Shown here in pieces: positions 10,584 through 11,564 of a stretch of DNA of 64,000 nucleotides (position 1 is its first letter; every line of letters begins with the position of its first letter). The DNA lies in NCBI GenBank assembly GCA_002684915.1, contig NYWG01000162.1, positions 11,324 through 75,323 of the forward strand, given 5' to 3'. Source of the DNA: Verrucomicrobiales bacterium. Its GTDB lineage: Bacteria; Verrucomicrobiota; Verrucomicrobiia; Limisphaerales; UBA1096. Position numbers and translations under genes: made by a program. The notes under the pieces are model-generated. The model ran no database searches. It had not been told where the DNA came from and saw only the letters and a program-made list of their open reading frames with translations.

Positions 10584-11564
10584 TTAGAGCTTAAGGTGAA
10601 TGCCGTTATCAACTGGGATGCTCATGCCCGTGATTGGACGACCGTCGCTTGAACACAAAAAAGCAACGACCTTTCCGATATCCAACGGACATGTTCCGCC
10701 CATGGGAGATAACTTTTCTAATTTTTGTTTCATTTTTTTGTCGCCCCCAATTTTCGAAAGATTTTCCCAGGCGTCTGTCGACGTCACGCCCGGTATGATG
10801 ACGTTACAATTGACATTGCGCATGCCGGCGCGCAGAGCAAATAAACGCATGGCATATTCCATGGTGCATTTTCCAGTCCCGGGCATGTCGTACCCGGGAC
10901 TGGGTCGGTAATGCAACGTACAACCACCCGAAGAAATGCCGACAAGAGACCCGCCGGAATATTTCATGCGGGCAAGTCCCCTTTCGCATAAATCAATATA
11001 TGCATCGCCGTATAATTTCTGGTAGTAGTGCATTTGTGTCAAATCGACATTACCATCCTCGGTAAGGATAGAACCATCGCCAAACGCCATAATTTTTTCG
11101 TGCTTTAATCCGAGACCATTTTGAGAAGTAATTCCGACGTATTGTCCAGCGTTATGTACGATGGCGCTTAAGTCGTGCGTCGCTTTGAGGTGTTTGTCGT
11201 ATTCTGTGAAAAGTTTGTCGCGCGTTTTAGTCTGGGATATATCCCCCGAAACGCACACAACGTCGCAATCATACTTATCTTGGAGGCTTTGAGTCGTTGC
11301 TTGCGACGACTTGACATCTGCGCAGTAATTAAGTAACAGATCGAAGCCGTCTGCGGCTAGTCGTTCAGAAATCGCGCGTCCTATGCCTCTCGTACCACCC
11401 GTCACAATCGCAAGACGTTTTCGACGCTGTTCAAAATTAGAAGTCACTCTTTTCCCGCTTTCCGCAGATAATTCGTCAATGTTTAACCTCATCGGGTGTT
11501 TTGTTTGAAAGCCGGTGCACGTTCGCCACGTCGCCAACTGAATAATAAGAATCTGCAGCAACAT
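10584..11564 (-). CDS. short-chain dehydrogenase/reductase with FabI/FabL-like Y-x6-K active site and hydrophobic N-terminal leader
   Basis: IVTGGTRGIGRAI (TGxxxGIG), VHNAGQ, and GYDMPGTGKCTMEYAMR (Y-x6-K rather than YxxxK). N-terminus is MLLQILIIQLATWRTCTGF. Confidence 0.8.
   Translation of the reverse strand: MLLQILIIQLATWRTCTGFQTKHPMRLNIDELSAESGKRVTSNFEQRRKRLAIVTGGTRGIGRAISERLAADGFDLLLNYCADVKSSQATTQSLQDKYDCDVVCVSGDISQTKTRDKLFTEYDKHLKATHDLSAIVHNAGQYVGITSQNGLGLKHEKIMAFGDGSILTEDGNVDLTQMHYYQKLYGDAYIDLCERGLARMKYSGGSLVGISSGGCTLHYRPSPGYDMPGTGKCTMEYAMRLFALRAGMRNVNCNVIIPGVTSTDAWENLSKIGGDKKMKQKLEKLSPMGGTCPLDIGKVVAFLCSSDGRPITGMSIPVDNGIHLKL

What the first reader, a model, noticed from the sequence alone, without database searches (positions are those of the whole stretch)
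10584..11564. Plastid or lipid-type enzyme set, some with hydrophobic leaders, scattered through the window
Besides petC, the window encodes four more enzymes of this kind. One is an SDR whose active site is Y-x6-K (GYDMPGTGK), the spacing typical of FabI/FabL enoyl-ACP reductases rather than classical YxxxK SDRs. The others are an NMO/FabK-like FMN enzyme (36821-37747), a UbiA-family prenyltransferase (48904-49803) and a Deg/HtrA protease with PDZ domain (44780-46789). PetC (..AIFTANA|LMF), the SDR (MLLQILIIQLATWRTCTG|FQT) and the UbiA protein (MKMIILLQLVVSWTAIA) all start with signal-peptide-like hydrophobic stretches. In algae with complex plastids, such a stretch is the first half of the plastid-targeting signal. 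Together these could represent viral intervention in thylakoid electron transport, quinone or prenyl-lipid synthesis, and fatty-acid synthesis. This is a hypothesis assembled from motif-level calls.
Basis: inference. Interest (0 to 1): 0.65.

Follow-up and report, generated by a model that had tools for sequence, protein, structure and literature searches.

The report
Leader-bearing algal-type reductase in giant virus
A marine giant virus carries a host-type reductase of unknown substrate, a prenyltransferase and a cytochrome b6f subunit that all begin with export or plastid-import-like leader peptides, which suggests (untested) that the virus sends its own enzymes into the alga's plastid or endomembranes; the specific idea that they rebuild fatty-acid synthesis is not supported.

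Summary
ORF 10584-11564(-) encodes a 326-aa SDR in which the classical catalytic Tyr is Pro228. Tyr225-x6-Lys232 is invariant in 67 homologues and aligns with FabL Tyr151/Lys158. The NMO, UbiA, Deg/HtrA and PetC genes are real, and the window is giant-virus DNA.

The SDR is not FabL or FabI (84 bits against a cut-off of 328). It belongs to an uncharacterised family found in phytoplankton and at least 13 giant-virus MAG loci, with no genuine prokaryotic member. Nearly every member starts with a signal-peptide-like leader. Only the window's lineage adds a 32-aa spacer beginning with Phe.

The NMO protein is bacterial-type, not FabK, and has no leader. Deg has none either. The UbiA protein is a divergent, DGGGPS-like subfamily whose diatom relatives carry canonical ...A|F bipartite plastid signals.

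All 12 viral PetC copies carry such leaders. Across 1,106 viral ORFs, leaders and Phe at +1 are strongly enriched in PetC, SDR, UbiA, TauD-like and PaO-like proteins. In other viruses the SDR lies beside UbiA, TauD-like or PaO-like genes.

Best reading: a host-derived, leader-directed enoyl-type NADPH reductase, part of a recurrent plastid/endomembrane-directed viral gene set. Substrate and localisation are untested.

The parts
10584..11564 (-). SDR gene, 326 aa. Uncharacterised algal/giant-virus SDR family with an enoyl-reductase-type Tyr225-x6-Lys232 dyad.
11511..11564 (-). SDR residues 1-18, MLLQILIIQLATWRTCTG: signal-peptide-like leader. A crude rule predicts cleavage at CTG|F.
   Evidence: AF2 models a helix at 2-17. 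The leader is conserved in P0001 (98% identity) and P0002 (81%, AKA|F). A leader is present in 104/111 family members. Coordinates checked.
11415..11510 (-). SDR residues 19-50, FQTKHPMRLNIDELSAESGKRVTSNFEQRRKR: a 32-aa spacer found only in the window/P0001/P0002 lineage. It starts with Phe and is predicted disordered.
   Evidence: pLDDT <50 for residues 19-43; 8 K/R, 4 D/E.
11379..11402 (-). Cofactor-binding motif TGGTRGIG (residues 55-62). Arg59 is invariant, as in NADP(H)-type SDRs.
   Evidence: The best Foldseek matches are NADP-bound SDRs.
10869..10892 (-). Active-site segment YDMPGTGK (Tyr225...Lys232). Pro228 occupies the classical Tyr position.
4116..4757 (-). petC, the cytochrome b6f Rieske subunit, 213 aa. 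It has a ~39-aa presequence: leader ...AIFTANA|L followed by a 23-aa spacer free of acidic residues.
48904..49803 (-). UbiA-superfamily prenyltransferase, 299 aa. Leader MKMIILLQLVVSWTAIA|L, then the conserved LFKMSRP motif. It is a divergent, DGGGPS-like subfamily.
36821..37747 (-). NMO-family FMN oxidoreductase, 308 aa, bacterial type. Not FabK; no leader.
44780..46789 (-). Deg/HtrA-type serine protease with two PDZ regions, 669 aa. The catalytic triad is intact; there is no leader.
9093..10569 (.). Downstream neighbours of the SDR: a sulfotransferase-like ORF (9093-9707, -) and DUF5672 (9790-10569, +). Both are syntenic in the related virus contig L005.
11679..12792 (+). Upstream neighbours of the SDR: a small membrane protein (11679-12107) and a GT25 glycosyltransferase (12133-12792). 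Both are syntenic in L005-L007.

Best explanation
The SDR at 10584-11564(-) is a functional, host-derived auxiliary metabolic gene of an uncultivated marine giant virus. It belongs to an uncharacterised SDR family restricted to eukaryotic phytoplankton and giant viruses.

Shown:
- A classical SDR fold with an NADP(H)-type Gly motif.
- The catalytic Tyr shifted to Lys-7, the FabL/FabI-type dyad, with Pro at the classical Tyr position.
- A family-specific ~35-aa insertion after the NAG motif.
- An N-terminal signal-peptide-like leader in almost all members.

Inferred:
- The enzyme uses NADPH to reduce a C=C conjugated to a carbonyl or thioester in a lipophilic substrate, not a simple ketone.
- It is made on ER-bound ribosomes.
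- In the window's lineage, the Phe that follows the predicted cleavage site, together with the 32-aa spacer, sends it on toward the host's complex plastid. PetC must make the same journey, and the UbiA protein may well do so too.

It is one member of a recurrent set of leader-bearing viral genes (PetC, UbiA, TauD-like, PaO-like) rather than a component of type II fatty-acid synthesis.
For: Family and chemistry:
- Pfam SDR domains.
- G57, R59, G60, G62, N138, S211, Y225 and K232 are invariant, and P228 is nearly invariant, in 67 sequences.
- The Tyr/Lys pair aligns with FabL Y151/K158, and FabL is the second-best PDB match to the family profile, 5.4e-27.
- The AF2 model has pLDDT 84.9 and an SDR fold whose best matches are NADP-bound structures.

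Distribution:
- 1,276 homologues, including Calcidiscus and Triparma.
- 13 IMG/VR GVMAG loci with >=43% identity.
- UniRef 'viral metagenome' entries.
- Only one hit in 185,579 prokaryotic species genomes, and that hit is a misbinned viral contig.

Selection:
- 98% and 81% identical orthologues keep the leader and spacer in frame.

Leaders:
- 104/111 family members have one.
- All 12 viral PetC (11 in IMG/VR plus the window) have leader plus spacer.
- Leaders occur in 45/63 PetC/SDR/UbiA/TauD/PaO proteins against 153/1043 other viral ORFs (p=4e-22).
- Phe at +1 occurs in 20/45 against 21/153 (p=3e-5).
- Diatom UbiA relatives have ASAFAP-type signals.

Linkage:
- SDR lies 4-5 kb from UbiA in L001, L028 and L029.
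- It is flanked by TauD-like genes and near a PaO-like gene in L008/L024.
- It is adjacent to a PaO-like gene in L020/L021/L097.
Against: - No substrate evidence. The fold search does not favour FabL over ketoreductases (FabL ranks 26-34), and the best single-sequence PDB hits are FabG-type.
- Most family members have only 3-8 residues between the predicted cleavage site and the Rossmann strand, so a classical transit peptide is absent. This fits an ER or secretory location, or an N-terminal anchor.
- The window's spacer contains 4 acidic residues, which is atypical for transit peptides.
- The cleavage predictor is home-made and the sequences are phylogenetically related, so the p-values are indicative only.
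- The window's own SDR scored 2.1, below my 2.5 cut-off.
- UbiA is far commoner in viruses (40 loci) than the SDR, and most UbiA loci lack an SDR within 10 kb.
- In the window, SDR and UbiA are 38 kb apart.
- The position of the window clade in the NJ tree is unresolved.
Confidence: 0.5

Rival explanations
1. One reading: the SDR is a FabI/FabL-type enoyl-ACP reductase. Together with a FabK-like NMO enzyme, it lets the virus boost plastid type II fatty-acid synthesis.
For: - The Tyr-x6-Lys dyad is aligned with FabL.
- FabL (NF005975) and another enoyl-ACP reductase model (NF006267) are among the top four NCBIfam matches.
- The NMO protein's best PDB matches are FabK structures, 6.6e-16.
- In the GC-rich, probably cellular contig L010, the homologue lies next to a ketoacyl synthase.
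Against: - FabL scores 84 bits against a cut-off of 328, and NF006267 scores 76.8 against 369.
- No FabI model is among the best 25.
- FabK scores 68.7 against 453, while the NMO protein is 52-59% identical to ordinary bacterial NMO/NAD(P)H flavin oxidoreductases and has no leader.
- No ACP, KAS, FabZ or FabG partner lies near the SDR in any viral locus; the neighbours are UbiA, TauD-like and PaO-like genes.
- The family-specific 35-aa insertion is absent from FabL.
Confidence: 0.12
2. The leader is an ER signal peptide or N-terminal anchor only. The SDR, and perhaps the UbiA protein, work in the ER or viral-factory membranes, for example on polyprenol/dolichol-type carriers or lipids needed for virion membrane and glycan synthesis.
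For: - Most family members have a leader directly followed by the Rossmann fold, without a transit-peptide-length spacer.
- In the window and in syntenic L005, the SDR is embedded among glycosylation-type genes: DUF5672, GT25 and a sulfotransferase-like ORF.
- 153 of 1,043 other viral ORFs also have such leaders, so ER entry is common for these viruses.
- From general knowledge, not tested here: SDRs act on polyprenol/dolichal (DHRSX) and on decaprenyl-P-sugars (DprE2, which works with a UbiA-type enzyme).
Against: - There is no KDEL/HDEL-type retention signal; the C-terminus is a conserved ...HLK[LTS].
- An NADPH-dependent soluble enzyme is unlikely to be useful if secreted.
- Phe or Leu at +1 is enriched in exactly the families that include PetC, which must reach the plastid.
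- Diatom UbiA relatives have plastid-type signals.
- The glycosyltransferase neighbourhood is not conserved in the other viral lineages.
Confidence: 0.28
3. It is an ordinary FabG-like or carbonyl ketoreductase. The shifted Tyr is an incidental variation without mechanistic meaning.
For: The best single-sequence PDB and Foldseek matches are ketoreductases: 6pzm 5.5e-18, AntM, LanV, FabG 4jro. The best NCBIfam hit is glucose 1-dehydrogenase, 87.8 bits.
Against: - The classical Tyr position is a nearly invariant Pro.
- The only conserved Tyr within reach of Lys232 is at Lys-7, exactly as in FabL.
- All these matches lie far below their family thresholds and are about as good as the FabL match.
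Confidence: 0.1

Closest known systems
FabL (enoyl-ACP reductase III, B. subtilis; PDB 3OIC/3OID)
   Same: - NADP(H)-type classical SDR fold.
- The Tyr-x6-Lys catalytic dyad aligns residue for residue (Y225/K232 with Y151/K158).
- Second-best PDB match to the family profile, 5.4e-27.
   Different: - Only ~23% identity.
- 84 bits against the 328-bit equivalog cut-off.
- The viral/algal family has a ~35-aa insertion after NAG, 3 extra residues before the Tyr, and an N-terminal leader.
- It has no FAS II gene context and no genuine prokaryotic members.
FabG-type 3-ketoacyl reductases and polyketide ketoreductases (6PZM, 4JRO, AntM, LanV)
   Same: Best overall sequence and fold similarity. Same TGxxRGIG motif, NAG motif, catalytic Ser and catalytic Lys.
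   Different: These use Tyr-x3-Lys. Here that Tyr is Pro228.
Host-derived auxiliary metabolic genes of marine giant viruses (LHC, rhodopsin, b6f/PetM, TCA and lipid genes)
   Same: A cellular metabolic gene carried by an NCLDV and recurrent in GVMAGs. A cytochrome b6-f gene is already annotated in co-PelV (PMC12338748), and photosynthesis genes are reported in GVMAGs (PMC12012013).
   Different: The SDR and UbiA subfamilies themselves are uncharacterised. The shared signal-peptide/F(+1) leaders have not, to my knowledge, been analysed: no paper in the library holds both 'ASAFind' and 'giant virus'.
DGGGP synthase and other archaeal UbiA homologues (6M31, 4TQ3, 4OD5), for the UbiA protein
   Same: Best sequence match (3.6e-5) and best fold match (TM 0.67-0.71). 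Both Asp-rich motifs are present.
   Different: - 14-15% identity, and all NCBIfam scores are far below their cut-offs.
- It has an N-terminal leader.
- Its nearest cellular relatives are uncharacterised diatom proteins of 400-550 aa with plastid-type signals.
ASAFAP-type bipartite plastid-targeting signals of diatoms, haptophytes and cryptophytes
   Same: A short hydrophobic leader, small residues at -3/-1, F/L at +1, then a spacer. This is seen in all 12 viral PetC, and in the SDR and UbiA.
   Different: - Assigned only with a crude home-made rule.
- The SDR spacer has acidic residues.
- The UbiA spacer is only 10 aa.
- Most SDR family members have almost no spacer.

Membership tests
SDR superfamily (classical type) | Rossmann fold with a TGxxxGxG cofactor motif and an NAG motif | tested here: met
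   TGGTRGIG at 55-62 and HNAG at 137-140. Pfam PF13561 102.8 bits and PF00106 67.8 bits, both above cut-off. AF2/Foldseek confirm an SDR fold.
SDR superfamily (classical type) | Catalytic Ser...Tyr-x3-Lys | tested here: not met
   Ser211/212 and Lys232 are present, but position Lys-4 is Pro228 (nearly invariant). The conserved Tyr is at Lys-7.
FabL enoyl-ACP reductase (NCBIfam NF005975 equivalog) | Tyr-x6-Lys dyad in register with FabL Tyr151/Lys158 | tested here: met
   Profile alignment to 3OIC. Y225 and K232 are invariant.
FabL enoyl-ACP reductase (NCBIfam NF005975 equivalog) | Whole-protein score above the curated cut-off (328 bits) | tested here: not met
   84.0 bits.
FabL enoyl-ACP reductase (NCBIfam NF005975 equivalog) | NADPH-dependent reduction of enoyl-ACP | not testable with these tools
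   Needs an enzyme assay or fabI complementation.
FabI enoyl-ACP reductase | Sequence membership in FabI models or structures | tested here: not met
   No FabI model among the best 25 of 145 NCBIfam matches. No FabI or InhA chain among the best 60 PDB matches to the protein or to the family profile.
FabK enoyl-ACP reductase II (TIGR03151), for the NMO protein | Score above the curated cut-off (453 bits) | tested here: not met
   68.7 bits. The closest relatives are bacterial NMO/NAD(P)H flavin oxidoreductases at 52-59% identity.
NMO family (PF03060), for the NMO protein | Pfam gathering score | tested here: met
   61.4 bits against 28.
UbiA prenyltransferase superfamily | PF01040 above cut-off, two Asp-rich motifs and a multi-helix membrane fold | tested here: met
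   87.6 bits against 34.2. NDLVD at 76 and DVQDYEDD at 212 are invariant in 7 relatives. The AF2 model is an all-helical bundle matching DGGGPS/UbiA structures.
Known quinone or glycerolipid prenyltransferases (4-HB polyprenyltransferase, DGGGPS and others) | Equivalog-level score | tested here: not met
   Best is DGGGPS-type NF009522 at 57.7 bits against 353. 4-HB octaprenyltransferase scores 26.1 against 364. No MenA or chlorophyll-synthase model reached E<=1e-5.
Cytochrome b6f Rieske subunit PetC | NCBIfam NF010001 above cut-off, the PetC TM anchor and the 2Fe-2S boxes | tested here: met
   240.2 bits against 154. PF25471 50.9 bits against 37.1. CTHLGC at 142 and CPCH at 160. 2e74_D 6.7e-64.
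HtrA/Deg protease | Trypsin-like domain with a His/Asp/Ser triad plus PDZ | tested here: met
   Trypsin_2 89.9 bits, PDZ_6 42.8 bits, GNSGGPL motif. TIGR02037 scores only 151.7 against 416, so no finer assignment is possible.
Bipartite plastid-targeting signal of complex-plastid algae | N-terminal signal peptide with F/W/Y/L at +1 of the cleavage site | tested here: inconclusive
   The crude +1-blind rule gives SDR CTG|F (score below my cut-off), PetC ANA|L and UbiA AIA|L. Enrichment of F(+1) is 20/45 against 21/153, p=3e-5. SignalP and ASAFind are not available.
Bipartite plastid-targeting signal of complex-plastid algae | Transit-peptide-like region after the cleavage site | tested here: inconclusive
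   PetC: 23 aa, 3 basic, 0 acidic. SDR: 32 aa, 8 basic, 4 acidic. UbiA: 10 aa. The median for the SDR family is 8 aa.
Bipartite plastid-targeting signal of complex-plastid algae | Demonstrated plastid localisation | not testable with these tools
   Needs leader-GFP fusions or organelle proteomics.

The most novel reading that the evidence does not exclude
Marine giant viruses carry a conserved, plastid-directed prenyl-lipid module: a DGGGPS-like UbiA prenyltransferase (often paired with a GDPD or near a G3P dehydrogenase), an enoyl-type Tyr-x6-Lys SDR, and TauD-like and PaO-like oxygenases. During infection this module would make or remodel an isoprenoid-derived lipid or pigment in the host plastid. 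The viral ...A|F leaders would then be a readable signature of hosts with complex red plastids.
Probability: 0.12. Interest if true: 0.85.

Novelty: new variant of a known kind. Interest (0 to 1): 0.58.

Why it matters
Host-derived metabolic genes in giant viruses are well known, but two questions are rarely addressed: where the viral proteins go in the cell, and what the uncharacterised ones do.

Here one virus genome supplies its own positive control. PetC must reach the thylakoid, and its presequence resembles those on two enzymes of unknown function. The same leader type recurs on the same gene families across dozens of giant-virus MAGs.

If the leaders work as plastid signals, three things follow:
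- Viruses import their own enzymes across four plastid membranes.
- The leader type predicts host group for uncultivated viruses.
- An algal SDR family and an algal UbiA family with no known function acquire a testable setting: plastid, NADPH, prenyl or enoyl substrate.

The specific claim of viral control of fatty-acid synthesis should be dropped.

Tried and rejected
- **Single-protein scan of IMG/VR for the SDR** found nothing. The alignment-based scan found 13 family loci.
- **Cluster look-ups for taxon names** were mostly empty. The 'Porticoccaceae', 'Rhodopirellula', 'Verrucomicrobiales' and 'Rhodobacteraceae' labels turned out to be misbinned giant-virus contigs.
- **NJ bootstrap** could not place the window clade: 100% for the clade itself, but 20-46% for any deeper grouping. 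I therefore make no claim about the donor beyond 'nearest by distance are GC-rich, haptophyte-like sequences'.
- **PetC-SDR linkage** (6 kb in the window, 9 kb in L023) looked like a module, but it is absent from the other 10 viral petC loci. Rejected as coincidence.
- **Met25 as the true SDR start, and Met28 as the true UbiA start.** Rejected, because the upstream leaders are conserved in frame in 81-98% and 33-99% identical relatives, and Met28 lies in an invariant motif.
- **Literature searches** found no description of these SDR or UbiA families in giant viruses.
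Full report
**What the window is.** The 64-kb window (about 41% GC) is densely packed with ORFs on both strands. It encodes NCLDV hallmark functions:
- a D5-like primase-helicase (DUF5906)
- an mRNA capping enzyme and a cap methyltransferase
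- Rpb5
- a deoxynucleoside kinase
- U-box proteins and several glycosyltransferases
- a 2,158-aa Gly_rich_2 protein

Proteins 99-100% identical to those of the window occur on metagenomic contigs of up to 180 kb from Tara and other marine samples, and in an IMG/VR giant-virus MAG. It is therefore an uncultivated marine giant virus.

**The observation.**
- ORF 10584-11564(-) is a 326-aa SDR (Pfam).
- In alignments to FabG-type structures, Lys232 falls on the catalytic Lys, the classical Tyr position is Pro228, and Tyr225 sits seven residues before the Lys.
- In a 67-sequence alignment, G57, R59, G60, G62, N138, S211, Y225 and K232 are invariant and P228 is nearly so.
- A profile of that alignment matches B. 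subtilis FabL (3OIC) at 5.4e-27, almost tied with the best match (Listeria FabG, 2.6e-27). It puts Y225/K232 exactly on FabL Y151/K158.

The 'Y-x6-K' observation is therefore real and structurally meaningful, not a chance spacing. The NMO, UbiA, Deg/HtrA and PetC genes are also real.

**What the SDR is not.**
- Against NCBIfam, FabL scores 84 bits (cut-off 328) and a second enoyl-ACP reductase model scores 76.8 (cut-off 369).
- FabI is not among the best 25 matches. A glucose dehydrogenase model scores slightly higher than FabL.
- The AF2 model (pLDDT 84.9) is a generic NADP-type SDR. FabL ranks only 26-34 among the Foldseek matches.
- The family has a ~35-aa insertion after the NAG motif, and three extra residues before Tyr225, that FabL lacks.

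The enzyme works like an enoyl-type reductase at motif level, but it is not a member of FabL or FabI.

**What the SDR family is.**
- The search returned 1,276 homologues. The best 120 are all 47-98% identical and about 300 aa long.
- Named members come from Calcidiscus (a haptophyte) and Triparma (a bolidophyte), together with UniRef 'viral metagenome' entries.
- Contigs labelled Porticoccaceae, Rhodopirellula or Rhodobacteraceae are AT-rich giant-virus contigs. They carry eL40, HMG-box genes, an NCLDV capsid gene and DUF5710/DUF5759, and are syntenic with GVMAGs. eL40 is a known feature of FloV-SA2-like viruses (PMC11499249).
- IMG/VR holds 13 loci with >=43% identity.
- A motif scan of 185,579 prokaryotic species genomes found only one such misbinned contig.
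- BFVD, which covers virus isolates, has no close homologue.
- In an NJ tree the window clade (window, P0002-P0004) has 100% bootstrap support, but its deeper position is unresolved. By distance its nearest neighbours are GC-rich, haptophyte-like sequences.

**The leaders.**
- Nearly every SDR family member (104/111 by a crude rule) begins with a 12-25-aa hydrophobic leader ending in small residues. A median of 8 residues then separates it from the [IV][IV]TGG motif.
- The leader is therefore inherited with the family. It is not a viral invention, and it is not an artefact of start-codon choice.
- Only the window, P0001 and P0002 insert a ~32-aa spacer that starts with Phe (CTG|F, AKA|F). AF2 models residues 2-17 as a helix and 19-43 as disordered.
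- The UbiA leader is likewise conserved in relatives of 33-99% identity, and Met28 lies inside an invariant LFKMSRP motif.
- PetC gives a within-genome control, because a b6f Rieske protein must enter the plastid. The window's PetC has ...FTANA|L followed by a 23-aa spacer free of acidic residues. All 11 other viral PetC copies in IMG/VR have a leader plus a spacer of 8-35 aa, several with ...TNA|F...VNS|F or ...IYS|F.

I wrote a cleavage rule that ignores position +1 and applied it to 1,106 dereplicated ORFs from the viral loci:

| Measure | PetC/SDR/UbiA/TauD-like/PaO-like | Other viral ORFs | p |
|---|---|---|---|
| Leader present | 45/63 | 153/1043 | 4e-22 |
| Phe at +1 | 20/45 | 21/153 | 3e-5 |
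| F/L/W/Y at +1 | 33/45 | 65/153 | 3e-4 |

The rule is crude and the sequences are related, so these numbers are indicative only.

The cellular relatives of the UbiA protein were found only by exhaustive phmmer (508 hits in 1.84 billion representatives). They include Phaeodactylum B7FWJ4 and a Grammatophora protein. These carry textbook diatom signals...PGLA|FNAE...VADA|FSAK and ...VHG|FSAH.

**The other enzymes.**
- The NMO protein is 52-59% identical to ordinary proteobacterial NMO/NAD(P)H flavin oxidoreductases. It also occurs in GVMAGs, sometimes fused to PF03928.
- Against FabK it scores 68.7 bits (cut-off 453), and it has no leader.
- Deg has an intact triad and PDZ regions. It has no leader and no specific affinity to plastid Deg proteins.
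- The UbiA protein has both Asp-rich motifs and a UbiA fold. Its closest characterised relative, by sequence and by fold, is archaeal DGGGP synthase, at very low identity. It does not reach the threshold of any quinone-type model.

**Gene neighbourhoods.** In the window the SDR lies among glycosylation-type genes, and this arrangement is syntenic in the 81%-identical virus L005. In other viral lineages its neighbours differ but recur:
- UbiA lies 4-5 kb away in L001, L028 and L029.
- UbiA lies 15 kb away on the same contig in another lineage, and in the same MAG in two more.
- Two TauD-like genes flank the SDR, with a PaO-like Rieske oxygenase 2 kb away, in L008/L024.
- A PaO-like gene is directly adjacent in L020/L021/L097.
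- A TauD-like gene and a G3P dehydrogenase lie within 9 kb in L019/L023.
- In L024 the SDR, both TauD-like proteins and the PaO-like protein all show ...|F after the leader.

UbiA is far more widespread than the SDR: 40 viral loci, often adjacent to a GDPD gene. Most of those loci lack an SDR nearby. The SDR-UbiA association is therefore suggestive rather than established. The PetC-SDR proximity seen in the window and in L023 is not general.

**Conclusion.** The SDR is best explained as a host-derived, leader-directed, NADP(H)-dependent reductase with an enoyl-type catalytic dyad. It is one of a recurrent set of leader-bearing metabolic genes in marine giant viruses.
- Shown: family membership, the conserved dyad, the conserved leader, the phytoplankton/virus distribution, and the recurrent neighbours.
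- Inferred: C=C (enoyl or enone) chemistry, cleavage at G18|F19, onward transport to a complex plastid, and cooperation with the UbiA enzyme.

The main rival keeps the enzyme in the ER or endomembrane system. The short spacers of most family members favour that view. The fatty-acid-synthesis reading is not supported.

A cytochrome b6-f gene has already been annotated in a Mesomimiviridae virus (PMC12338748), and photosynthesis genes have been reported in GVMAGs (PMC12012013). The presence of such genes is therefore not new. What appears to be new is the shared plastid-type leaders and the two uncharacterised enzyme families.

Noticed in passing
window 4116-4757 (-); L086-L096: A bona fide cytochrome b6f Rieske gene (petC) with a ~39-aa presequence. 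Eleven further giant-virus contigs in IMG/VR carry petC at 43-78% identity, all with leader plus spacer.
   Followed up: partly
L028, L029, L050, L053, L055, L058, L065, L081 (UbiA at about 10 kb in most loci): In many giant-virus MAG contigs a UbiA homologue is immediately followed by a glycerophosphodiester phosphodiesterase (GDPD) gene. The UbiA proteins carry ...A|F leaders, but the GDPDs have none. Because the UbiA is DGGGPS-like, this raises the question of a glycerol-phosphate-based prenyl lipid.
   Followed up: partly
L016 1166-3169; L017 1-2004: A UbiA homologue 39% identical to the window's lies about 400 bp from a viral-type rhodopsin gene (RYLDWFLTTP..., with Lys in helix G) on a giant-virus contig.
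   Followed up: no
L008/L009/L024 6.3-11.9 kb; L020/L021/L097: A gene island of PaO-like Rieske oxygenase, TauD-like dioxygenase, SDR and a second TauD-like gene. All four proteins have signal-peptide-like leaders followed by Phe. The PaO-like/SDR pair is also adjacent in a FloV-like lineage.
   Followed up: partly
L001-L004, L014/L015, L097; proteins P0043, P0158, P0172: Public MAGs named Porticoccaceae, Rhodopirellula, Verrucomicrobiales and Rhodobacteraceae contain AT-rich giant-virus contigs of up to 548 kb, with eL40, HMG-box genes and a GARS-AIRS-GART fusion. These are misbinned.
   Followed up: partly
window 457-1437 (-): A patatin-like phospholipase (PF01734, 3.1e-26) that also starts with a hydrophobic stretch (IFMPILSISTAMICSC) immediately before its GGGxRG motif.
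   Followed up: no
window 9093-12792: The SDR sits in a conserved block: sulfotransferase-like ORF, DUF5672, SDR, small membrane protein, GT25. The block is syntenic in L005-L007. Further glycosyltransferases lie at 22182-23084, 40610-41965 and 54148-56109.
   Followed up: partly
window 57335-63811 (-): A 2,158-aa ORF with a C-terminal Gly_rich_2 domain. A 1,313-aa Gly_rich_2 protein also lies next to the SDR island in L008/L009.
   Followed up: no
proteins P0199-P0207, P0232 (homologues of window 36821-37747): In other giant-virus MAGs the NMO-type flavoenzyme is fused to a PF03928 domain, giving proteins of about 450 aa. The window's copy is the unfused 308-aa form.
   Followed up: no
window 17666-18475 (+) and 21472-22125 (-): Two paralogous U-box proteins. 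Relatives occur near the SDR in the FloV-like loci L019, L022 and L023.
   Followed up: no
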